A DNA stretch of 41,802 nt from a virus (lineage: Duplodnaviria; Heunggongvirae; Uroviricota; Caudoviricetes), in IMG/VR virus record IMGVR_UViG_2541047852_000009, one strand, 5' to 3'. Made by a program: the position numbers and the translations under genes. This document shows positions 6,501-35,594 of the stretch, piece by piece. Each line of letters begins with the position of its first letter. The first letter of the stretch is position 1. A model generated the notes under the pieces. That model made no database searches. It was not told the origin of the DNA and worked only from the letters and a program-made list of their open reading frames with translations.

Positions 6501-7258
6501 TTTACCGGGTCATAGTTTGACGGCACCTGGATGATGCGACCGCGGATATGGTAGTTCACCGTCATCTGCTGGCCGCCGAACTGCTCCGCATCCACCTGCA
6601 GCCCCACAATGGCCGTGTTCGGGTAGCACTGTTTCACATCGATGATTTCAGTGTATGACGACCACAGCGTCTTATTCTGCAGCTGGTCCGTGGTGCTGTC
6701 CGCCGTCTCCCTGACCATCCGGATGTTAAAGGGCCGGGGAGGCAGATTATCCAGAATCACCGAGGCCAGGAACTGTGAGGTGGTCTTGCCGTTAATGGTG
6801 ACGTCCTTTTCCGTCACCCAGCGGCCATTACGCTGTAACTGAATCAGAATCCGGACAGAGGAAGGATTACGGTCGCCCTTTGACGTGGTCTGCACCAGTG
6901 ACTGCACTCCGAAGGTAACCCGCAGGAGGTCAATGTTCGCGGACGTAATGGTGCGCGTCACCGGTTTTGCCTTCGTCACTTCCACGCCCAGTCCGGTTTC
7001 AGCTCCGGAGGACTCAAAGCCTTCCGGTGGTGTCTGCTCCTGCTCCCCGGCACGCCAGACCGCGGTCACACCGTGTATCACGGGATTACCGTCCGTGTCC
7101 GTCAGCGGGGTTTTGTTCACCAGGATACTCTGCAGTCCCTTCACCGGGCCTTCTATCGGTCCCTCACCAATCGCATCAATCACACTCATCATCTGCGTGG
7201 ATTTGAGATTATCCTTCGCCTCGCGCGGTGTGTGCGCCTTACCGCCACCTTTACCCAC
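3566..7258 (-). CDS. J: Tail tip / host-specificity protein J
   Basis: Collinear with lambda J over ~1200 aa; likely GTG start at 7258 ([19 protein letters not shown], preceded by GGAGAGGGGGA); the listed ORF extends to an in-frame TTG at 7303. Confidence 0.9.
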
Positions 7259-7370
7259 TCGATCCCCCTCTCCTGTCTGATGTCTGAATCTGTTTATGCC
7301 CAAAAAACAACAGGCACCCCGGAGGATGCCTGTATCATGACTGAATAAAAATTCTGAATATCTTCACATT

Positions 7371-7398
7371 TTCACAAACTGACTGTGGCGCGTATAAT
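7371..7398 (+). promoter_or_regulatory. Sigma70-like promoter (TTCACA - 16 nt - TATAAT) in the I-J intergenic insert
   Basis: -35 at 7371-7376, consensus -10 TATAAT at 7393-7398, 16-nt spacer; opposite in orientation to the flanking tail genes. Confidence 0.45.
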
Positions 7399-7404
7399 TT
7401 CGCT

Positions 7405-7498
7405 GCGTTAGTGTTTTTTGCCCGAGTAACAAAAACAACTCCTTAACTCTAATCTTTGTCTGTCCCCGCAGCTCCGCGATCACTGCGGGATTTTTTTA
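7405..7498 (+). ncRNA. Candidate small RNA (~95 nt) between tail genes I and J
   Basis: Promoter followed ~60 nt later by an intrinsic terminator; contains CA-rich stretch AACAAAAACAAC; no ORF. Confidence 0.4.
7465..7498 (+). terminator. Rho-independent terminator of the candidate sRNA
   Basis: Stem cccgcag/ctgcggg (7465-7471 / 7483-7489) followed by ATTTTTTTATT. Confidence 0.6.
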
Positions 7499-7504
7499 TT
7501 CTTT

Positions 7505-8185
7505 TTACCCCTGCCGCCCGATAACCACGACCTTTCCGCCCCCGCCTTCATCACGGGTGCTGATGTCCTGGGATATACGGCGGGAGCCAACCAGCATTTC
7601 CCCGTAAGGCACCGGCATCGGGTTCCCCTGGGCAATCATGTTATCCAGCGAGGAAAAGTAGGTGTTCTGTTTACCGTTATCCGTGCTTTTGTACTCCGGT
7701 GTTTTTGCCTTCGGGGCCAGCATCTGGGCCACACCGCCCAGTATCATGCTGGCCCCCAGTGAAAACAGCATCGTGGTGGCAGAAAAACCGCCGGCACTCA
7801 GGGCTGTACCCCATAACGCCATCGAGCCTCCGGCCGTGAAGAAAGAGCCCACGATGGCTGCCGCCCCCAGCACAATCTGCAGTCCGCCCTTTCCGGCTCC
7901 GGCCAGTCGCGGCACAATGTGGATGACCGTTCCCTCACCCAGCTGTTCGTGAAGACGGGCGTACACCGCCTCCGGTGCCGTGTCATCACCGGCAATACGT
8001 ATCTGGTACCAGCCTTCGTTCATCTGACGGCGAAAGCCCGGCACCTGTAACGACAGGGCACGGATGGCTTCCGCTGCCGTGTTCACATACAGGCTGAGGC
8101 GGCGGCCAAATCGTTGCAAATCCCCGTGAAGGCAGATGCGTGCCAGTGGCGGTGACGCCAGACAGAATGCGTTCGTCGTTGCCAT
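7505..8185 (-). CDS. I: Tail assembly protein I
   Basis: 226 aa; strong match to lambda I as recalled (ARICL.GDLQRFGRR, GKQNTYFSSLDNM). Confidence 0.85.
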   Translation of the reverse strand: MATTNAFCLASPPLARICLHGDLQRFGRRLSLYVNTAAEAIRALSLQVPGFRRQMNEGWYQIRIAGDDTAPEAVYARLHEQLGEGTVIHIVPRLAGAGKGGLQIVLGAAAIVGSFFTAGGSMALWGTALSAGGFSATTMLFSLGASMILGGVAQMLAPKAKTPEYKSTDNGKQNTYFSSLDNMIAQGNPMPVPYGEMLVGSRRISQDISTRDEGGGGKVVVIGRQG

Positions 8186-22078: not shown

Positions 22079-22460
22079 ATTTTTCAGCTCGCCGTCCATT
22101 TACATCCCTCCACATAAACCGCTGAACAAAAGTGGCTCTTTTTTTGTAAAGAAATGCCGCCATATAAAGATGTCGAACAAAAATCAACCGCAATCATCAT
22201 CTTTTTAATGCTAAACACATTAAAAACAATAAGTTACCATTATGATGATGATGACGATAAAATCACAAAAATGCGCCTTTTTCCGCGCCGTCCGCCCCGT
22301 GTTCAGGCCCACCCCACCAGGAGGACCCGCAAAAATGATAATGGTTATCATTTTCAATGTAGTCCGGTTTCTTCCACCATCGCACCGGACAGGCGACTAT
22401 GAGGGGACAACGCCGCGCTCCGTTAACGCGGTAAACCCCGGTGTGTATCGTTTTTGATTA

Positions 22461-22540
22461 TCCCCGCACACTCGCGCAGAGGAGTCTCCCTGTCGGGCTG
22501 CGGTCTCTGTTAATGCGGGGATACGGCGACAATACCGCGC
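22461..22540. other. Candidate cos region
   Basis: Non-coding stretch between Rz and the terminase small subunit; GGGGATACGGCGAC resembles the lambda cosN core GGGCGGCGACCT; flanked by a 10-bp perfect inverted repeat tatccccgca / tgcggggata. Confidence 0.25.
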
Positions 22541-22551
22541 ATCAGCAAAAC

Positions 22552-23019
22552 TTATTTCAGGCACTGAGTGCGGATATATTCCTGCGCCACTTCCAGCTGC
22601 TTCTGCATCAGCATCAACCGCTCTCTGAGAGTGAAATAATCCCGTTCAGCGGTGTCTGCCAGTCGGGGGCCGGTTGCATTATCCACGCCGGAGGTGGTGG
22701 GGGCTTCACGCACGGTACCGGGGCAGGTGGCGTTGATCCGCAGGCGCTTACGACCAGCGGCAACGTCAGCGCGCAGAGTTTCATTTTCAGTTCTCGCATC
22801 GGCTAATTCCCTCGAGTATCTGGCATCAAGTGCAGCAACATCACGCTGGCGCTGCTGCATATCAGTAATGGTTGCATTTGCCTGCTCCAGCTCACTGACT
22901 TTTTTATCGCGCTGCTCTTTGTAGGTTATGGCGTTATCACGGTAATGATTCAGCCCCAGACTAAGCGCACCACAGGCCACCAGCAGGGCAATGATGACCA
23001 CGCACAGTACGCGGTTCAT
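22552..23019 (-). CDS. Rz: Spanin, inner-membrane subunit (Rz)
   Basis: 155 aa; matches lambda Rz (NHYRDNAITYK.QRDK...RDVAALDA.Y..ELADA...). Confidence 0.85.
   Translation of the reverse strand: MNRVLCVVIIALLVACGALSLGLNHYRDNAITYKEQRDKKVSELEQANATITDMQQRQRDVAALDARYSRELADARTENETLRADVAAGRKRLRINATCPGTVREAPTTSGVDNATGPRLADTAERDYFTLRERLMLMQKQLEVAQEYIRTQCLK
22614..22784 (-). CDS. Rz1: Spanin, outer-membrane lipoprotein subunit (Rz1), embedded in Rz in the +1 frame
   Basis: Lipobox LVVSAC, then CVKPPPPPAWIMQP.PDWQTPLNGIIS, matching lambda Rz1. Confidence 0.75.
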   Translation of the reverse strand: MKLCALTLPLVVSACGSTPPAPVPCVKPPPPPAWIMQPAPDWQTPLNGIISLSESG

Positions 23020-23020
23020 T

Positions 23021-23119
23021 TCACCACCAGCGTATCTGACCGATGAAATAACCGGAGGCCATAATCACAAACACCAGCCAGATAAGAATGAACTTCCAGG
23101 TGGATAATTTTTCAGCCAT
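23021..23119 (-). CDS. Candidate 32-aa hydrophobic peptide between R and Rz
   Basis: ATG at 23119 preceded by GGGAGA (8-nt spacing); translation MAEKLSTWKFILIWLVFVIMASGYFIGQIRWW; stop TGA overlaps the Rz start (TGAaATG). Below the ORF-track size cutoff. Confidence 0.3.
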   Translation of the reverse strand: MAEKLSTWKFILIWLVFVIMASGYFIGQIRWW

Positions 23120-23194
23120 CACTCGAATCTCCCGAATCAGTTTGCTAAAATCAAACACACTTTCTCCTTTGACTTTTCCAGAGTCAGGAAACAC

Positions 23195-23228
23195 AAAACC
23201 CCGCTTGCAGCCAACAAACGGGGTTTTT
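23195..23228. terminator. Bidirectional terminator-like hairpin in the R-Rz gap
   Basis: aaaaccccg ... cggggttttt: GC stem flanked by an A-run and a T-run. Confidence 0.4.
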
Positions 23229-23317
23229 ACTTTTATTCACTTAGTTTTTGTCAGTTCGCAGGATTTCGTGTTATCCGTCCGTGTAAGCAAACCGCATTTT
23301 TCAGCACAATATTCTGC

Positions 23318-23851
23318 TTATCTGTCGATACCCCAGCACGCCAGCGCGCTCTCCTGGTCACGACGGGATACCTGACCGTAGCAGTTGTTTGAACGAATAC
23401 GGCAGTCTCTGCCACCGTCCTTAATCCACCAGCGAATCGCCTCACACGCTCCCCTGCGATCACCTGCATTAATTCGTTTATAAAACGTCGACGGGAAACA
23501 CTTACCGGGACCAATGTTGTACGGACAGAATGACGCGATCCCCGCTTTCTGGGGTTCGCTCAATGGCACTTTGATGTTTTTCTCCACCCATGCCAGCGCC
23601 TTATCACGCTCAATGGCGTTAACCCGGTCGCATTTTTCCTTCGACAACTTCATGCCCGGAACGACAGGTTTGCCATCCACCAGGATGGCACCGCGGCAGA
23701 TGGTCCAGATACCCGCACCATCACGGTATGCCGTGGTGTGGTTACCTTCCTTTTCATCCAGAAACTGGTCGAGAATGTCAGGCGCAGGCGCACCAGCGGC
23801 AATCAGCGCCAGAACGGCAGCCGACAGGCCGTATCTGATTTTTGCGTTCAT
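23318..23851 (-). CDS. R: Endolysin, phage lysozyme with N-terminal SAR (signal-anchor-release) segment
   Basis: 177 aa; hydrophobic Gly/Ala-rich N-terminus (GLSAAVLALIAAGAPAP); lysozyme-like core; pairs with a pinholin. Confidence 0.85.
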   Translation of the reverse strand: MNAKIRYGLSAAVLALIAAGAPAPDILDQFLDEKEGNHTTAYRDGAGIWTICRGAILVDGKPVVPGMKLSKEKCDRVNAIERDKALAWVEKNIKVPLSEPQKAGIASFCPYNIGPGKCFPSTFYKRINAGDRRGACEAIRWWIKDGGRDCRIRSNNCYGQVSRRDQESALACWGIDR

Positions 23852-23956: not shown

Positions 23957-24229
23957 ATGGACAATAACACCATTTCTCTACAGGAGTTGCTCGACAGCAT
24001 TTCCAGGCTTCGGGAAGACGTGAATACCCTTACCGTCGCCTTCTCATATCTGGCATTCTCAATTCCAAGGGAACAGATGCAATCAACGCTGGCATCAATC
24101 CAGTTTGAATCATGCAATCCCAAATGGTCTCAGGAACAACAAGACTCTTTCAGGCGGCTTGCTGTATTACTGGATGAAAAATATGCTGGTAAAATTACCA
24201 TTTCGGTGGAGTCTTCAGAGAACCAGTAA
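23957..24229 (+). CDS. Hypothetical 90-aa protein, opposite strand, inserted in the lysis cassette
   Basis: ATG 23957 with GAGGA 6 nt upstream; 3' end overlaps the convergent 114-aa ORF by 35 nt. Confidence 0.45.
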   Translation: MDNNTISLQELLDSISRLREDVNTLTVAFSYLAFSIPREQMQSTLASIQFESCNPKWSQEQQDSFRRLAVLLDEKYAGKITISVESSENQ

Positions 24230-24539
24230 TTCTTCCCGGTAGCTTTCCTTTGTAGGTTATCCATACATTCTGCGCCTCTAAAATTACGGGGCGCTTTTCC
24301 GGCGACTGCTCATCCCCTTCACATAACCCGGCAGCAACATCCAGGAAGACCTGTCTGATGCTCATTCTGGCTGCTGCCTCATAAAACTCCAGCGCGGCAC
24401 CTTCAACACGGTCCAGCGAGATGTCCAGGTCAAAAATTTCACCGTCAAAGCGTTTTTTGTCCCGTAACGCTAAAGTTACCGTAACTTTATTCTCAAAATT
24501 GCGGATCCCTTTCACAATCAGTTCATAGTTTTGAGTCAT
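24195..24539 (-). CDS. Small protein between holin and endolysin (DUF1327/YdfR-like, tentative)
   Basis: 114-aa ORF directly downstream of the holin; family assignment from memory only. Confidence 0.4.
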   Translation of the reverse strand: MTQNYELIVKGIRNFENKVTVTLALRDKKRFDGEIFDLDISLDRVEGAALEFYEAAARMSIRQVFLDVAAGLCEGDEQSPEKRPVILEAQNVWITYKGKLPGRITGSLKTPPKW

Positions 24540-25460: not shown

Positions 25461-27431
25461 TCATGCCGCAGCATCCGCGTTGTTCACTTCCACCTTCACA
25501 CTGTCAATCAGCAGCGTATATGTCGCCGCCTTTGATATGCCTGTCAGTTGCAGTTTGTCCGCCGCCCCTGATGCCGGAGATTTCACCAGTGTGAACGGCG
25601 TCCCCCGTTTCTCATCCAGTACCGGCGTCACCTGAATGCTGTTGTTTCCGGCAAACTCAAAAGCCAGTGTGTGCCATCCGTTATCAAAGACCCCGAACGT
25701 ATCCAGCTTCGCATTCGGCTTCTTGTGGTGCATCGCGTTCAGGTTCGTCGCATCCGTCTGCAGGAAGAAGGACATCAGCATGTCGTTGCCTTCCTCTGCC
25801 AGCGTCACTCCCTCCGGCAGGGACGACAACTGCCAGTAAATGCCCAGGGCAAACTGATTCGGCACCAGTGAACCCGGCAACTTAAACCGTACGCTCACAC
25901 GTCCCCCCTTCTTCAGTAACTCCACTCCCTGTCCGGCTGCATCATGCTCCAGAAACCAGATGTGGTTTTCCGGTTTATTCAGTTGCAGGGCCTTACCTCC
26001 CGTAGCCCCCGCATCACTGACCACCGCTTCAGCAATGTTTTTGTTAACATTGTCTCCGCTCGCCGGTTTGTGATAATAGCGCCAGCCCTGTGATGCCAGG
26101 TCTTCGCCGGACGCCAGCAGACTCATCAGGGTTCGGTTACTGACCGGGGCTTCCGGCTCTCTCTCCGTACCTTCACCGGAAGGTCCGGTGGGCTTCACCG
26201 TATCAGGCTGTTTTCCGGTAATGAATTCAGCGTTTCTCCCGGCATGCACAAGAATCGCCGTTGCCAGACGGTCGGAAATAATCCCACGACGTGCCCATGA
26301 TCCAAAATGCGTTTTACGGTCAGCCGTCGTCCAGGTTTTGGCGTCCGTTCGACCACCGGCTCCGTAATACCCAATATCCGCAACATCCGGATCTTCTGAC
26401 GGCTCGTTGGTACCCACATTTCGCCCGTTTTCATCCGTCATAAACGGCACAAAGAAGATTTTTTTTGCGGATTTCGTCTTGTATGCACCATACACCGCAT
26501 CGTATTGCGAAGAATAAGTCTGCTTCCAGTAGTAGGTCGTGTCGCCACAAATCCAGGGAACTGATGACGGAGAGCCCCCGAGACACTGACCTCCGAATTC
26601 CGACAGGTCAGAACGATATTTTTCCACCATGGAATCAAACAGCCCCGGCTGAGTGGCGTATGCACCCTGTTTCAAATCAAACTCGCCCTGCATCCAGACC
26701 ACTGCAAGCAGAATATTTTTAGGGTTGGCCTTCAGTGCGGCCTGAGTACGGGTAAGCAGGTCCTTGTACAGTGGCTTATCTACACCCCAGCGTGCCGAGG
26801 TCTCGCTTGCGCCGGTGGATTCGCTGAAGGTACCTTCATCGCCCGCCAAAAATGCAGAACCACCACGGCAGCACGGAACCAGAAGAATACCGGCATTCGC
26901 CGGAATAAACGGCAACAATTTCTTCGCGATATGTAATCCCTGCCCCACGCATCCATACTGAGCTGCGCTGGCTTTCGGGTGTGAAAACTTACTCAAATCC
27001 TGAACATCATGCAGGCAGTGGTCCGCAGGAATAATGTCATTGTAGTTACAGGACGCACCACCCGGCGTGACAGTGCTGCGACGCGCCAGCTGTTTAATAC
27101 GCGGGTCCGGACGGTCATATGTCTCCGGCAGCGGAAGCCCTTCACCATACGCCATACCGTTTGACTGCCCGGCCAGGGCAACAACAAAGTAATACTCCGG
27201 GTTGCTGGTGGTGCTGATAACTGCGCCTTCTCCATCCGACGGCTTCACCACCACAGGTGTGGTGACATTACCTTCTGCGACAATCGCCTGAATAAGTGCT
27301 GCGCCATCATCCGTATACGAAGAAAACGGCCCGCCGTATGGTTGCCATCCTTCACGAATTTTTTGAGCAAGCGCATCCGCAAGGTCTGACGGCGATGCCG
27401 CCCTGACCACGTCATAGTGTTTAAATGCCAT
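25461..27431 (-). CDS. Prophage NanS-p-like sialate O-acetylesterase (DUF1737 N-terminus plus SGNH/esterase domain)
   Basis: 656 aa; position between the tRNA cluster and the holin is where 933W-type phages carry this gene; strong RBS GGAGGA. Confidence 0.7.
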   Translation of the reverse strand: MAFKHYDVVRAASPSDLADALAQKIREGWQPYGGPFSSYTDDGAALIQAIVAEGNVTTPVVVKPSDGEGAVISTTSNPEYYFVVALAGQSNGMAYGEGLPLPETYDRPDPRIKQLARRSTVTPGGASCNYNDIIPADHCLHDVQDLSKFSHPKASAAQYGCVGQGLHIAKKLLPFIPANAGILLVPCCRGGSAFLAGDEGTFSESTGASETSARWGVDKPLYKDLLTRTQAALKANPKNILLAVVWMQGEFDLKQGAYATQPGLFDSMVEKYRSDLSEFGGQCLGGSPSSVPWICGDTTYYWKQTYSSQYDAVYGAYKTKSAKKIFFVPFMTDENGRNVGTNEPSEDPDVADIGYYGAGGRTDAKTWTTADRKTHFGSWARRGIISDRLATAILVHAGRNAEFITGKQPDTVKPTGPSGEGTEREPEAPVSNRTLMSLLASGEDLASQGWRYYHKPASGDNVNKNIAEAVVSDAGATGGKALQLNKPENHIWFLEHDAAGQGVELLKKGGRVSVRFKLPGSLVPNQFALGIYWQLSSLPEGVTLAEEGNDMLMSFFLQTDATNLNAMHHKKPNAKLDTFGVFDNGWHTLAFEFAGNNSIQVTPVLDEKRGTPFTLVKSPASGAADKLQLTGISKAATYTLLIDSVKVEVNNADAAA

Positions 27432-27922
27432 GAATCCTCCCGGCCGGGATAATATTGTGAGTAAAATAAGGAGCGGGCTGAAGTCCGGAAGTTACAGGAC
27501 AATGGCAGAAGAGAGACGACAGCCCGCAATTCGAAAAAGGCCACGCAGTTGCGCAGCCTTATGAATTCTGGTTAAAATCCATTCGATTATAAAAATGTAT
27601 ATCTCATGCTGTTGCCCGAACCCACTCGGTTTTTTTTTGCCCACAAGAAAGCCCCTCCGGAGAGGGGCTAAAGCCGCGTATCTGTATCATCATGCACATG
27701 GTGCCGGGTGCCTCCCGGTGAGTTCAGTATCAGCACCTGAACCCGCACAGAAAGGATAAGGGTCGGTGACAAAACACCAGTCGCTGATTGCCCCTCCGCA
27801 CAGGGGGATTCACCATGCCAGTTTCTTTTAACAAACTCCCCGCAAAACAGACAACTGTCAACCGTCTGAATTGTGAGACATTTAAAAAAAAGCCCGCAAA
27901 AGCGAGCCGGGAAAAATAAGTC

Positions 27923-27999
27923 TGGCGCGTTGTACTGGATTCGAACCAGTGACCGATTGCTTAGAAGGCAATTGCTCTGTCCGGCTGAGCTAATAACGC
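27923..27999 (-). tRNA. tRNA-Arg (anticodon TCT), phage-encoded
   Basis: Hand-folded cloverleaf, 77 nt: anticodon loop cTTCTAa, T-loop TTCGAAT, 3' CCA encoded; one A-C mismatch in the acceptor stem. Confidence 0.75.
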
Positions 28000-28012
28000 A
28001 GGGTACAGATAA

Positions 28013-28089
28013 TGGACCGCCATCGAGGACTCGAACCCCGCGCAACCAGCTTCGAAGGCTGGCGCTCTATCCTGATGAGCTAATGGCGG
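28013..28089 (-). tRNA. tRNA-Arg-like (anticodon TCG by hand fold)
   Basis: 77 nt: acceptor ccgccat/atggcgg, anticodon stem ccagc/gctgg with loop cTTCGAa, T-loop TTCGAGT, CCA encoded; unusual C1 start. Confidence 0.6.
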
Positions 28090-28096
28090 TATGTGA

Positions 28097-28172
28097 TGGT
28101 GGCCCTTGCTGGATTTGAACCAGCGACCTAGCGATTATGAATCGCTCGCTCTCACCACTGAGCTAAAGGGCC
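28097..28172 (-). tRNA. tRNA-Ile2/Met (anticodon CAT), ileX/ileZ-like
   Basis: 76 nt: acceptor ggccctt/aagggcc, anticodon loop tTCATAa, T-loop TTCAAAT, CCA encoded; closely resembles E. coli tRNA-Ile(LAU). Confidence 0.8.
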
Positions 28173-34765: not shown

Positions 34766-35594
34766 GACGATGCCCTCCGCTGATATTAAGGAGACGGTGA
34801 ATATGAAAATTAGCCTTATCCGCCAGACGAATACGTTCAGCCTGCAAGTTAAGAAGGGTTTCTACCAGAACCTGATGTGCCTGCGGATCCGAAAGAGTTA
34901 CCTTGCGCAGAGCACGTAGTGCAGTTGTTACATAACTGAGTTTATGTAAGTCGTCATCATTCAGACGAGAGAGGGCTGGGACAGTAGCCATGATGGCAGC
35001 CTCCGTATGCAATGGATAACTTCCACCACCGGAAACGCCAATTTCGCTGGTGGTGAACTGAGCAGGGTTGGCGTAACCGGCGCATACGGAAACCGGCGCA
35101 CCTTTCGGTGCCCCCACCCAGCCCACCATAATTTGGGTATAGCTGAGTTGTAGCAACAAAAAAGACGCTAACGCGCCAATTGTCGCCGTATGCAATTCCA
35201 GGACGCCAATCCCGGCACCCGCTTTATAAGGTGCCTGAACAGTGTAACGTCCCGGAATGGCAGAATCAATGTGCTGGTGGTCCTTCACACTCAACAAAAT
35301 CACGCCTGAATTTCCACAAAGGACTAAAGCACTCATGCGGGTAGTCTTTGCGAAGATAGATAACGCGCTGTGTTTCTGGCTCCCAACGAATAACATGGAC
35401 ATAAAGCCCTCTTCCGTCACGAAACCAGCGGTTAAGTTCCTGCACAACTCGCCCCCCACAGTCAGGTAAAGTTCTCTGTGGTTACTTACAGCCAGGTGAT
35501 TTGGTAATCTGCATTCATGCCGTAACAACAGGTGTTCAGCGACACTGACCACCAGCTGTTGCGACAAACGATTATTTGCCGTTAAACTGTTCAT
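34758..35594 (-). CDS. Conserved prophage protein (YdaU-like, tentative)
   Basis: 278-aa ORF directly downstream of the cII/YdaT-like gene, the position YdaU holds in Rac; no recognisable motif. Confidence 0.35.
   Translation of the reverse strand: MNSLTANNRLSQQLVVSVAEHLLLRHECRLPNHLAVSNHRELYLTVGGELCRNLTAGFVTEEGFMSMLFVGSQKHSALSIFAKTTRMSALVLCGNSGVILLSVKDHQHIDSAIPGRYTVQAPYKAGAGIGVLELHTATIGALASFLLLQLSYTQIMVGWVGAPKGAPVSVCAGYANPAQFTTSEIGVSGGGSYPLHTEAAIMATVPALSRLNDDDLHKLSYVTTALRALRKVTLSDPQAHQVLVETLLNLQAERIRLADKANFHIHRLLNISGGHRHA

What the first reader, a model, noticed from the sequence alone, without database searches (positions are those of the whole stretch)
23020..23317. 300-bp insertion between endolysin and Rz with a 32-aa hydrophobic ORF and a bidirectional terminator
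R and Rz are normally adjacent. Here the gap contains a short ORF with a reasonable RBS encoding a single-TM-like peptide (MAEKLSTWKFILIWLVFVIMASGYFIGQIRWW) whose stop overlaps the Rz start codon, plus an A-run/GC-hairpin/T-run element (23195-23228). A small membrane peptide coupled to the spanin gene could be a lysis modulator or a type I-toxin-like moron.
Basis: seen in the sequence. Interest (0 to 1): 0.45.

Follow-up and report, generated by a model that had tools for sequence, protein, structure and literature searches.

The report
Mobile small-membrane-protein cassette before Rz
The 298-bp gap between the endolysin and spanin genes is a widespread, self-contained mobile cassette (two-way terminator, structured leader, conserved 45-residue membrane protein gene, probably a small antisense RNA) whose job is unknown and which nobody seems to have studied, although it sits in one of the best-known phage gene clusters.

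Summary
The lysis genes are on the minus strand, R 23851-23318 and Rz 23019-22552, 298 bp apart. The hairpin at 23195-23228 has A/T runs on both sides.

Corrections: the 32-codon ORF is the C-terminal part of a conserved 45-codon ORF (GTG 23158, stop 23021). It matches PHROG 6632 (unknown function) over its full length. Its stop lies 1 nt before the Rz ATG and does not overlap it.

The ORF is coding: dN/dS is 0.09-0.15 in frame and at least 0.75 off frame. Homologues occur in Escherichia, Salmonella, Citrobacter, Enterobacter, Klebsiella and Pseudomonas aeruginosa.

Terminator, a second hairpin over the ribosome-binding site, and ORF travel together as one module. It lies behind five endolysin types and before three i-spanin families, but also inside tail and baseplate operons. 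It is therefore a moron, not a spanin-specific lysis gene.

Synonymous sites of codons 3-12 are frozen. On the opposite strand they spell an extended -10 (TGnTAnnnT, 22/22 variants). This predicts a ~75-80-nt antisense RNA covering the ribosome-binding site and ending at the terminator, a hok/sok- or symE/symR-like layout.

No expression data were available. Protein function is unknown.

The parts
23318..23851 (-). Endolysin R (177 aa, R21-like with a hydrophobic N-terminal signal-anchor); upstream neighbour of the cassette
   Evidence: ORF list; annotated as lysozyme/endolysin in matching records
23229..23317 (-). Conserved ~90-nt 'leader' between the R stop and the terminator; function unexplained. 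It is not part of the minimal mobile module: it is absent in Citrobacter, Enterobacter and E. fergusonii copies.
   Evidence: Shared by 2024/5426 E. coli genomes, by Sakai Sp10 where ant is inserted after it, and by Salmonella L128/SPN3UB. Absent.
23195..23228 (.). Bidirectional intrinsic-terminator-like hairpin: A-run 23195-98, stem 23199-23207 / 23215-23223, loop 23208-14, T-run 23224-28
   Evidence: Scan tool hit on the minus strand. Folds on both strands. 90.9% of cells paired with compensatory changes across 11 lineages. Sense-strand hairpin more stable in most lineages.
23170..23186 (.). Second small hairpin (TGACT/AGTCA) directly 5' of the ribosome-binding site. In most relatives its 3' arm overlaps the ribosome-binding site (CCTTG..CAAGGgag).
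   Evidence: Each lineage forms a hairpin here with a different sequence. Partial counts on the MAFFT alignment.
23164..23168 (-). Shine-Dalgarno AAGGAG for the GTG start (5-nt spacing)
   Evidence: Sequence; the equivalent AAGGGAGAA is conserved in all lineages
23021..23158 (-). 45-codon ORF: GTG start 23158-56, TGA 23023-21. Product: VFDFSKLIREIRVMAEKLSTWKFILIWLVFVIMASGYFIGQIRWW. N-terminal amphipathic/charged part, transmembrane residues ~24-42 (23089-23033), C-terminal RWW. PHROG 6632.
   Evidence: phrog_6632 positions 1-45/45, E 1.2e-29. 45-aa homologues in many genera. dN/dS 0.085-0.15 in frame versus 0.75 or more off frame. Hydropathy.
23021..23119 (-).
   Evidence: GGAG and ATG invariant in 22/22 distinct variants even where residue 9 changes. 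Some databases annotate 32-aa forms.
23123..23151 (+). Predicted antisense promoter embedded in codons 3-12: -35-like TCGAAT 23123-28, 17-nt spacer, extended -10 TGCTAAAAT 23143-51
   Evidence: TGnTAnnnT at this position in 22/22 distinct family variants; third-codon positions inside it never vary. Only 2 TGnTAAAAT on the whole plus strand of the window. NOT reported by the sigma-70 scan tool, because the -35 matches only 3/6.
23158..23237 (+). Predicted cis-antisense small RNA (~75-80 nt): 5' anti-SD CUUUCUCCUUU, hairpin, A-rich linker AGGAAACACAAAA, terminator hairpin, U-tail
   Evidence: MFE -21.9 kcal/mol, z -3.5. The same architecture is predicted in 10 lineages. No Rfam family. No expression data.
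23020..23020 (-). 1-nt spacer in the TGA-A-ATG junction between the small ORF and Rz
   Evidence: Sequence. The same TGGTGGTGA-N-ATG junction occurs before three different i-spanin families.
22552..23019 (-). Rz i-spanin (155 aa) with embedded Rz1 o-spanin (22614-22799); downstream neighbour
   Evidence: ORF list; annotation in relatives

Best explanation
The gap is a self-contained mobile cassette (a moron) inserted into the late operon exactly between the endolysin stop and the i-spanin start.

On the late-gene (minus) strand it contains:
(i) a GC hairpin flanked by an A-run and a U-run, which can terminate transcription in both directions;
(ii) a second small hairpin that abuts or occludes a strong Shine-Dalgarno sequence;
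(iii) a GTG-initiated 45-codon gene for a single-pass inner-membrane protein (N-in amphipathic segment, one transmembrane helix, periplasmic RWW end), with a possible second start at Met14;
(iv) a stop placed 1 nt before the Rz ATG.

Shown: the protein gene is real and under purifying selection. The two hairpins are conserved as structures. The whole unit moves as one piece between unrelated late-operon sites.

Inferred:
- No promoter precedes the gene and a terminator does. The protein can therefore be made only from read-through late transcripts (Q-antiterminated in lambdoid phages).
- The opposite strand of codons 3-12 carries a conserved extended -10 promoter. From it a ~75-80-nt antisense RNA would start at the complement of the start codon, cover the ribosome-binding site and end at the same hairpin.
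- That RNA, together with the occluded ribosome-binding site and the weak start codon, would keep the membrane protein off until late transcription swamps it. This is the logic of hok/mok/sok and symE/symR.
- It could also damp translation of the abutting Rz gene.

What the membrane protein does in the envelope is unknown. The regulatory locks suggest it is harmful if made at the wrong time.
For: Coding:
- Full-length match to PHROG 6632.
- 45-48-aa homologues in at least 8 genera.
- dN/dS 0.085-0.152 in frame versus 0.75-8 in the other frames.
- Hydrophobic second-codon-position periodicity also holds in codons 2-13.
- Transmembrane segment predicted.

Module and mobility. The same hairpin, second hairpin, ribosome-binding site and ORF are found:
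- behind R21-type, PF00959, GH19, M15 and a fifth endolysin type, and in front of PF03245, DUF2514 and DUF2570 i-spanins;
- between baseplate genes (SEN34, K. grimontii) and in a P. aeruginosa tail-gene moron cluster.

Structures:
- Terminator helix: 90.9% of cells paired, only 1/500 shuffles reach the observed covariation.
- The second hairpin is formed by six different sequence pairs.

Antisense promoter:
- Synonymous diversity is 0.17 in codons 2-13 versus 0.535 in codons 14-45. It is 0/100 same-residue pairs in codons 3-5, and the rare CGA codon 12 is invariant.
- TGnTAnnnT occurs in 22/22 variants, even where residues change.
- Unrelated ORFs attached to the same 5' module carry TATACT/TACACT, TAGACT or TAATAT at the same +8..+14.
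- The A-tract AAAAGCAAAA (an antisense U-tail) is conserved within the module in all contexts.
- The predicted RNA folds the same way in 10 lineages.

Precedent. The Hfq-bound, Northern-verified sRNA EcOnc22 (Tree et al. 2014, PMC4104026, Table S2) maps opposite the 5' end and ribosome-binding site of a small moron ORF in the Sakai Sp15 tail I-J gap. It ends at a hairpin upstream of that ORF.
Against: - I could obtain no transcript or ribosome data for this module.
- The sigma-70 scan tool finds no promoter there, because the -35 matches only 3/6.
- The terminator hairpin is more stable on the sense strand in 11 of 14 copies. Its G.U pairs become C.A mismatches on the antisense strand: 9 versus 16 unpaired cells of 99. 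Selection therefore acts at least on the sense RNA.
- Tree et al.'s list of 63 orphan Hfq peaks has none at the related module in Sakai Sp4. That copy carries a rearranged ORF start.
- Frozen synonymous sites near a start codon can also reflect translation-initiation constraints or the internal GGAG.
- Some variants behind the same 5' module lack a -10-like hexamer at that place (MGREVLSL type, L259, L261).
- In P2/Mu-like tail operons a strong sense terminator should hurt the downstream essential genes. This is unexplained.
- Frameshifted copies exist.
Confidence: 0.5

Rival explanations
1. A dedicated lysis accessory protein. A small membrane protein co-translated with the i-spanin tunes lysis: an antiholin-like or pinholin/SAR-endolysin modulator, or a spanin chaperone or inhibitor. 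The long and short forms made from two starts would have opposing activity, as in holin/antiholin pairs.
For: - In enterobacterial prophages the gene lies between endolysin and i-spanin in every lysis cassette examined.
- The junction TGGTGGTGA-N-ATG is identical before three different i-spanin families.
- Other small single-transmembrane ORFs occupy the same slot: PHROGs 1115, 4493, 4906, some also ending in RWW.
- Even when ant is inserted, a small transmembrane ORF still directly precedes Rz.
- Met14 and the GGAG 9 nt before it are invariant.
Against: - Homologous cassettes sit in baseplate and tail operons far from any lysis gene.
- The association is independent of holin and endolysin type.
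- The protein has no charged cytoplasmic C-terminal domain as holins do.
- The shared RWW-stop may only reflect the Rz ribosome-binding site and a recombination joint.
Confidence: 0.2
2. An ordinary lysogenic-conversion moron. The small inner-membrane protein is made in the lysogen and benefits the host or prophage, for example by blocking DNA injection of superinfecting phages as HK97 gp15 does. The hairpin is simply an insulator or terminator.
For: - Found only in temperate phages and prophages, at classical moron sites, in many contexts.
- Small single-pass membrane proteins are a known moron cargo (HK97 gp15; review PMC3594210, listed; details from my own knowledge).
Against: - No promoter-like sequence precedes the ORF.
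- A terminator lies ~35 nt upstream of its ribosome-binding site, the ribosome-binding site is structurally occluded, and the start is GTG/TTG. This argues against constitutive expression in lysogens.
- No PADLOC match.
Confidence: 0.15
3. The functional element is RNA only: a terminator or mRNA-stabilising hairpin, or a small RNA gene. The ORF is then incidental, a short upstream reading frame that merely delivers ribosomes to Rz.
For: - The 5' module (terminator, second hairpin, ribosome-binding site) is shared by several unrelated downstream ORFs and by 8-codon mini-ORFs.
- Frameshifted ORF copies exist.
Against: - Strong purifying selection on the protein sequence across genera, with near-saturated synonymous change in the transmembrane part.
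- Constant 45-codon length.
- In tail and baseplate contexts the downstream gene has its own ribosome-binding site.
Confidence: 0.07

Closest known systems
PHROG 6632 (phage orthologous group, function unknown)
   Same: Full-length match of the 45-aa product (profile positions 1-45 of 45, E 1.2e-29). The Salmonella homologue also matches.
   Different: The group only catalogues sequences. No function, regulation or genomic logic is attached to it.
Morons of lambdoid phages (Juhala/Hendrix definition; e.g. HK97 gp15, lambda bor/lom)
   Same: Extra DNA between genes that are adjacent in relatives. It carries its own terminator, occurs in many unrelated late-operon positions, and encodes a small membrane protein.
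   Different: Classical morons are promoter-gene-terminator units. Here the terminator precedes the gene and no sense promoter is found. The promoter-body-terminator order exists only on the opposite strand, for the predicted small RNA.
hok/mok/sok and symE/symR (type I toxin-antitoxin loci of E. coli; from my own knowledge of these systems)
   Same: - A small hydrophobic protein (hok).
- An antisense RNA whose promoter lies inside the 5' end of the reading frame.
- That RNA covers the ribosome-binding site and start codon and ends upstream of it.
- A structured, ribosome-binding-site-occluding leader.
- Translational coupling to the next reading frame (mok to hok; here small ORF to Rz).
   Different: No sequence similarity and no Rfam hit. 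There is no own promoter for the protein-coding RNA, and a terminator stands in its place. Toxicity and the antisense RNA itself are unproven.
EcOnc22/23/24 of E. coli O157 Sakai (Hfq-bound prophage sRNA, ~85 nt; Tree et al. 2014)
   Same: It lies opposite the 5' end and ribosome-binding site of a small moron ORF inside a prophage late operon (tail I-J gap). It ends at a hairpin with a T-run placed just upstream of that ORF. A homologous gap is present in this window at 7227-7537.
   Different: The sequence is different, there is a single hairpin, and the ORF (39 aa) is not hydrophobic. My mapping rests on a coordinate shift of +128 to +143 between two versions of the Sakai record.
Phage antisense regulators of phage genes (P22 sar/ant, P1 C4, lambda OOP; from my own knowledge. 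A C4 RNA is found elsewhere in this window)
   Same: A short phage-encoded antisense RNA pairs with the translation-initiation region of a phage gene.
   Different: Those control immunity or lysogeny genes, not a small membrane protein in the lysis or tail operon.

Membership tests
PHROG 6632 | Significant full-length match to the family profile | tested here: met
   E 1.2e-29, residues 1-45 on profile positions 1-45/45
Moron | Extra DNA between two genes that are adjacent in related phages | tested here: met
   rrrQ/rzpQ overlap in K-12 Qin. The gap is present in 871-2024 of 5426 E. coli genomes.
Moron | Same unit found in unrelated genomic contexts (horizontal mobility) | tested here: met
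   Five endolysin types, three i-spanin families, baseplate and tail operons
Moron | Own promoter upstream and terminator downstream of the gene | tested here: not met
   On the gene's strand the terminator is upstream and no promoter-like site is found. That order is met only on the opposite strand, for the predicted small RNA.
Moron | Expression from the repressed prophage | not testable with these tools
   No transcriptome data accessible
Type I toxin-antitoxin | Small (<60 aa) hydrophobic protein with one transmembrane helix | tested here: met
   45 aa; Kyte-Doolittle mean 2.13 over residues 24-42
Type I toxin-antitoxin | Antisense RNA pairing with the toxin's translation-initiation region | tested here: inconclusive
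   Conserved TGnTAnnnT in 22/22 variants, frozen synonymous sites and a terminator on the opposite strand. There is no transcript evidence, the scan tool is negative and there is no Rfam family.
Type I toxin-antitoxin | Toxin mRNA made from its own promoter | tested here: not met
   No promoter-like site. An intrinsic terminator lies ~35 nt before the ribosome-binding site in all lineages.
Type I toxin-antitoxin | Ribosome-binding site sequestered in leader structure | tested here: met
   The second hairpin overlaps or abuts the ribosome-binding site in all lineages, with different sequences
Type I toxin-antitoxin | Toxicity on over-expression, relieved by the RNA | not testable with these tools
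   Needs experiment
Holin/antiholin | Membrane protein of the lysis cassette with a charged cytoplasmic C-terminal domain | tested here: not met
   The C-terminus after the transmembrane segment is only RWW. No holin Pfam or NCBIfam hit. Homologues occur outside lysis cassettes.
Holin/antiholin | Dual-start motif giving two products | tested here: inconclusive
   GTG start, plus invariant Met14 with invariant GGAG 9 nt upstream. No translation data.
Spanin system component | Obligate linkage to i-/o-spanin genes | tested here: not met
   Linked in enterobacterial lysis cassettes but not in SEN34, K. grimontii or P. aeruginosa
Intrinsic (Rho-independent) terminator | GC-rich hairpin followed by a U-run | tested here: met
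   Both strands. The helix is conserved with covariation. Termination efficiency was not testable.

The most novel reading that the evidence does not exclude
The cassette is a new family of antisense-RNA-gated small membrane proteins of temperate phages, a 'late-operon type I-like' system.
- A prophage-expressed ~75-80-nt RNA, promoted from inside the first codons of the gene, silences a potentially membrane-damaging 45/32-aa protein pair made from two starts.
- Through the TGA-N-ATG junction it also throttles i-spanin translation.
- Envelope disruption would then be licensed only when Q-antiterminated late transcription outruns the RNA.
- The RNA gene, not the ORF, would be the conserved mobile core, since several unrelated small ORFs overlap it.
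Probability: 0.2. Interest if true: 0.75.

Novelty: new variant of a known kind. Interest (0 to 1): 0.6.

Why it matters
- **Well-studied setting.** The lambdoid lysis cassette (holin, endolysin, Rz/Rz1) is a textbook system and the exit route for Shiga toxin. Yet about one in six complete E. coli genomes, and many Stx1/Stx2 phages, carry this uncharacterised, selectively maintained gene with its RNA structures in the middle of it.
- **If the antisense RNA exists.** It would add a new prophage small RNA and a new way of gating late and lysis functions. It would also explain why a terminator sits in front of the gene rather than behind it.
- **If the protein affects the membrane or lysis timing.** It would bear on toxin and phage release in Shiga-toxin-producing E. 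coli.
- **Practical point.** Most annotations skip the gene or give it the wrong start (32, 57, 65 or 72 aa).

Tried and rejected
- **RNA families.** Rfam on the window, on the gap at E up to 10, and on ten related loci gave no family. The only match was a sub-threshold rimP-leader resemblance at 23162-23251(+), 29.9 bits against a cut-off of 47.
- **Protein libraries.** Pfam, NCBIfam, PADLOC and PDB sequence searches found nothing.
- **Literature.** Full-text searches for the peptide strings gave no paper. Searches on lysis cassettes, Stx phage genomics and antisense RNA near Rz found no description of the gap genes.
- **Anti-sRNAs AgvB/AsxR/EcOnc10-12.** I first suspected the terminator was the 3' end of one of these. 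Rejected: AgvB/AsxR lie at the stx/moron site. EcOnc10-12 (HnrS) lies downstream of Rz in Sakai Sp10 and has no match in this window.
- **Hfq peaks.** No orphan Hfq peak is listed at the related module in Sakai Sp4.
- **dRNA-seq / Term-seq.** The supplement of the Sakai paper (PMC7547250) is not held.
- **Alternative plus-strand promoter.** The tool reports CTGACC-18-CATAAT at 23036-23065. I rejected it as the conserved promoter because that part of the ORF is saturated with synonymous changes in relatives.
- **Mini-ORF in the leader.** ATG CGG TTT GCT TAC ACG GAC GGA TAA is not kept in frame in Salmonella L128.
- **Longer annotated ORFs.** The 57/65/72-aa versions start inside or upstream of the terminator hairpin and are not conserved.
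- **Long-range sense-strand fold.** The fold pairing codons 2-4 with the leader is not supported in other lineages.
- **Species-representative genome scan.** It returned only two loci. Breadth came from the protein searches instead.
Full report
**1. What is in the sequence**

The lysis genes lie on the minus strand:
- holin 24759-24544;
- a YdfR-like gene 24539-24195;
- endolysin R 23851-23318;
- Rz 23019-22552, with Rz1 embedded at 22799-22614.

R and Rz are separated by 298 nt (23020-23317). In the K-12 Qin prophage the corresponding genes overlap, so the gap is indeed extra DNA.

Read on the minus strand, the gap contains in order:
- a ~90-nt stretch (23317-23229);
- an A-run / GC hairpin / T-run (23228-23195);
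- a second small hairpin (23186-23170);
- AAAGGAGAAAGT, then GTG (23158-56);
- an open frame of 45 codons ending TGA (23023-21);
- one base (23020), then the Rz ATG.

The stop is adjacent to the Rz start but does not overlap it.

**2. It is common, and catalogued but unnamed**

- The gap is 96-98% identical in H-19B, CP-1639, TL-2011c and many Stx1a, Stx2a and Stx2c phages.
- The complete gap is in 871 of 5426 complete E. coli genomes.
- The R-proximal part, down to the ribosome-binding site at about 23162, is in 2024 genomes.
- Annotators mostly skip the ORF, or call it 45, 57, 65 or 72 aa.
- The 45-aa product matches PHROG 6632 (function unknown) over the whole profile, E 1.2e-29.
- Pfam, NCBIfam, PADLOC and the PDB give nothing.
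- Rfam gives nothing for the RNA elements.
- I found no paper that discusses these genes.

**3. The ORF is a real gene of 45 codons**

- Homologues of 45-48 aa occur in E. coli, E. albertii, E. fergusonii, Salmonella, Citrobacter, Enterobacter, Klebsiella, Trabulsiella, Providencia and P. aeruginosa.
- Between the window, E. fergusonii and Salmonella copies, dN/dS is 0.085-0.152 in the reading frame and 0.75-8 in the other two frames. Differences are concentrated at third codon positions.
- The start is always GTG or TTG, 5-6 nt after a strong AAGG(G)AGAA.
- In the N-terminal 13 codons the second positions of the hydrophobic codons are invariant T while first and third positions vary. This extension therefore also looks translated.
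- Hydropathy gives one transmembrane segment (residues ~24-42, mean 2.13). Five K/R lie on the N-side and only RWW follows the segment, which fits N-in / C-out topology.
- Met14 and a GGAG 9 nt before it are invariant in 22/22 distinct variants, even where residue 9 changes. This is untested.
- A minority of copies are frameshifted, as expected in decaying prophages.

**4. Terminator, leader and ORF form one mobile module**

The decisive observation came from the genomic contexts.

The unit is: A-tract, GC hairpin, U-tract, ~20 nt, small hairpin at the ribosome-binding site, GTG/TTG, 45 codons. It is found:
- behind an R21-type endolysin (this window);
- behind a PF00959 lysozyme (Salmonella);
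- behind a GH19 enzyme (E. fergusonii, Enterobacter);
- behind an M15 peptidase (another E. coli prophage);
- behind a fifth endolysin type (Citrobacter braakii).

It lies in front of i-spanins of three different families: PF03245, DUF2514 and DUF2570. The junction is the same each time, TGGTGGTGA-N-ATG.

The same unit also sits:
- between the baseplate spike and wedge genes of Salmonella phage SEN34 and a Klebsiella grimontii prophage;
- in the moron cluster between tail genes K and I of P. aeruginosa prophages.

The left border of the unit is about 20 nt upstream of the hairpin. The right border is the stop codon.

The ~90-nt stretch 23317-23229 is not part of the minimal unit. It is absent in Citrobacter, Enterobacter and E. 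fergusonii. It is independently conserved, including where an ant gene is inserted after it. I cannot explain it.

So the cassette is a moron. A function tied specifically to spanins is unlikely, although the lysis cassette is its commonest home.

**5. The slot is a hot spot for small membrane ORFs**

- Other E. coli prophages keep the same terminator and leader but continue with different small single-transmembrane ORFs: PHROGs 1115, 4493 and 4906. There can be up to four in a row. Some also end in RWW-stop directly before Rz.
- Hybrids exist between the PHROG 6632 N-terminus and the PHROG 1115 C-terminus.
- E. fergusonii has two terminator-plus-ORF modules in tandem.

**6. The RNA structures are conserved**

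*Terminator helix.*
- On an 11-lineage alignment, 90.9% of cells pair.
- Three of nine pairs show changes on both sides.
- Only 1 of 500 shuffles reaches the observed covariation or pairing. Slid registers drop to 32-61% pairing.

*Second hairpin.* It is formed by different sequences in different lineages (MAFFT-based counts under-count this because of indels):
- TGACT/AGTCA here;
- CCTTG/CAAGG, CCTG/CAGG, CGTT/AACG, GGCAG/CTGCC and CCTCATG/CATGGGG elsewhere.

In most lineages its 3' arm is part of the Shine-Dalgarno sequence.

*Which strand.* The hairpin is the more stable on the late-gene strand in 11 of 14 copies. G.U pairs there become C.A mismatches on the other strand: 9 versus 16 unpaired cells of 99. 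The other strand still folds at -9 to -16 kcal/mol and carries an equally good U-run. 'Bidirectional' is therefore a fair description.

**7. A predicted antisense RNA**

*Frozen synonymous sites.*
- Synonymous sites are not uniformly free. Among nine lineages the fraction of same-residue pairs that use different codons is 0.535 in codons 14-45 but 0.17 in codons 2-13.
- It is zero for codons 3, 4, 5, 10, 11 and 12. These include Ser as AGC and Arg as the rare CGA in every lineage, even in GC-rich Pseudomonas.

*What the opposite strand spells.*
- The frozen blocks read TCG(C/A)A(A/T), a 17-nt spacer, then TGnTA(A)(A/T/G)AT. This is a weak -35 plus an extended -10.
- In the window these are at 23123-28 and 23143-51.
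- TGnTAnnnT is present in 22 of 22 distinct variants, including ones where residues 3, 4 or 5 differ.
- TGnTAAAAT occurs only twice on the whole plus strand of the window.

*The predicted transcript.*
- Transcription would start at about the complement of the start codon (about 23158).
- It would run through the anti-Shine-Dalgarno CUUUCUCCUUU, the small hairpin and an A-rich linker (AGGAAACACAAAA).
- It would stop at the hairpin and U-run (about 23229-23237), giving 75-80 nt.
- It folds at -21.9 kcal/mol with z = -3.5, with the same architecture in ten lineages.

*Other ORFs on the same leader.* Unrelated ORFs attached to the same leader carry a -10-like hexamer at the same +8..+14:
- TATACT/TACACT in PHROG 1115;
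- TAGACT in the first E. fergusonii module;
- TAATAT in a mini-ORF variant.

Three other variants do not.

This model explains three things: why a terminator precedes the gene, why the A-tract belongs to the module, and why those codons are frozen.

*What counts against it.* It remains a prediction.
- The consensus scan tool does not call the promoter, because the -35 matches only 3/6.
- I could get no transcript data.
- No orphan Hfq peak is listed at the related, rearranged module in Sakai Sp4.

**8. A precedent with experimental support**

Tree et al. (2014, PMC4104026, Table S2) list EcOnc22/23/24. It is Hfq-bound, ~85 nt on Northern blots, and destabilised without Hfq.

I allowed for the +128 to +143 shift between the two versions of the Sakai record. 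EcOnc22 then falls in the Sp15 tail I-J gap, on the strand opposite the late operon. It lies across the 5' end and ribosome-binding site of a 39-codon moron ORF. It ends at a hairpin with T7 run that sits just upstream of that ORF. That is the geometry I predict for the R-Rz module.

The window itself has an 81%-identical copy of that gap at 7227-7537. There the ORF start is lost but the hairpin is kept.

**9. How it most likely works**

*Shown:*
- a conserved membrane-protein gene;
- two conserved hairpins;
- a mobile unit;
- abutment to the next gene.

*Inferred:*
- The gene has no promoter of its own and lies behind a terminator. It can therefore be expressed only from terminator-resistant or read-through late transcripts.
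- Its ribosome-binding site is occluded and its start codon is weak.
- A cis-antisense RNA made from the prophage probably blocks residual translation. Through the TGA-N-ATG junction it may lower Rz translation as well.
- Such stacked locks are typical of membrane-toxic peptides, as in hok/mok/sok and symE/symR (my knowledge of those systems). I therefore think the protein is deleterious when made early and acts on the inner membrane late in infection.
- What it does there is unknown. Possibilities are lysis timing, depolarisation, exclusion, or something else.

*Confidence:*
- about 0.9 for 'mobile cassette with a real 45-aa membrane protein';
- about 0.5 for the antisense RNA;
- about 0.3 for a toxin-like or late membrane role.

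**10. Unresolved difficulties**

- A competent sense-strand terminator inside baseplate or tail operons of phages that are not known to use antitermination should reduce expression of essential downstream genes.
- The sense-strand bias of G.U pairs says the hairpin matters in the late mRNA too, as an insulator, stabiliser or attenuator.
- The function of the 23317-23229 stretch is open.

**11. Verdict**

The finding is real, and more interesting than a one-off insertion. It is a widespread, selectively maintained, mobile cassette in the middle of a textbook gene cluster. Its odd 'terminator-first' layout is best explained by an overlapping antisense small-RNA gene.

In kind it belongs with morons and antisense-gated small membrane proteins. 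It matches none of the defined families in all defining features. I rate it a new variant of a known kind, interest 0.6.

Noticed in passing
window 7227-7537 (sense on the minus strand; tail I-J intergenic gap): 81% identical to the Sakai Sp15 I-J gap, where the Hfq-bound sRNA EcOnc22 (~85 nt) maps opposite a 39-codon moron ORF. In the window the ORF start is lost, but the A-run/hairpin (CCCGCAG..CTGCGGG) and the T-run on the plus strand are kept. An EcOnc22-like small RNA may therefore be encoded here. No Rfam family matches.
   Followed up: partly
window 23229-23317: A ~90-nt stretch between the R stop and the terminator is conserved in 2024/5426 E. coli genomes, including prophages with ant inserted after it, and in Salmonella. 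It is not part of the mobile module. It contains ...GGATAACACGAAATCC... No conserved ORF, promoter or Rfam match was found. Unexplained.
   Followed up: partly
window 22399-22507: 97% identical to the Rz-distal flank of Sakai prophage Sp10. In Sp10 the sRNA HnrS (EcOnc10-12; PLoS Pathog 2026, PMC13502914) lies a little further on. HnrS itself has no match in the window; a different AT-rich hairpin (about 22330-22356) occupies that place.
   Followed up: partly
window 27639-27847, 27926-28172, 35046-35133, 35158-35234 (all minus strand): Rfam gathering-score hits: STnc100 sRNA, three tRNA genes (the usual lambdoid/Stx-phage tRNA cluster after Q), a C4 antisense RNA and isrK. No stx genes follow the tRNAs. 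A 656-aa NanS-like esterase gene (25461-27431) does.
   Followed up: no
window 23957-24229 (+) and 24195-24539 (-): The lysis cassette is interrupted a second time. A YdfR-family gene follows the holin. A 90-codon ORF on the opposite strand lies between it and R; it is annotated as hypothetical in O157 strains. This is another moron-like insertion.
   Followed up: no
L132 2650-3000 (E. fergusonii), L141 ~1740-1850 (Salmonella phage SPN3UB), L135 (Sakai Sp10 ECs_1966): Further small single-transmembrane ORFs in the endolysin-to-Rz slot:
- a second terminator-plus-ORF module in tandem (MKESSNKTNL...WVKWW);
- a 36-aa ORF overlapping the SPN3UB endolysin stop;
- a 48-aa PHROG 4906 ORF between ant and Rz.
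The slot collects small membrane genes of several families, with mosaic C-termini.
   Followed up: partly
window 23036-23065 (+): The scan tool reports a promoter-like site (CTGACC-18-CATAAT) on the strand opposite the 3' half of the small ORF. It is specific to the E. coli lineage, since synonymous sites there are saturated in relatives. It could give a longer antisense transcript in this phage.
   Followed up: partly
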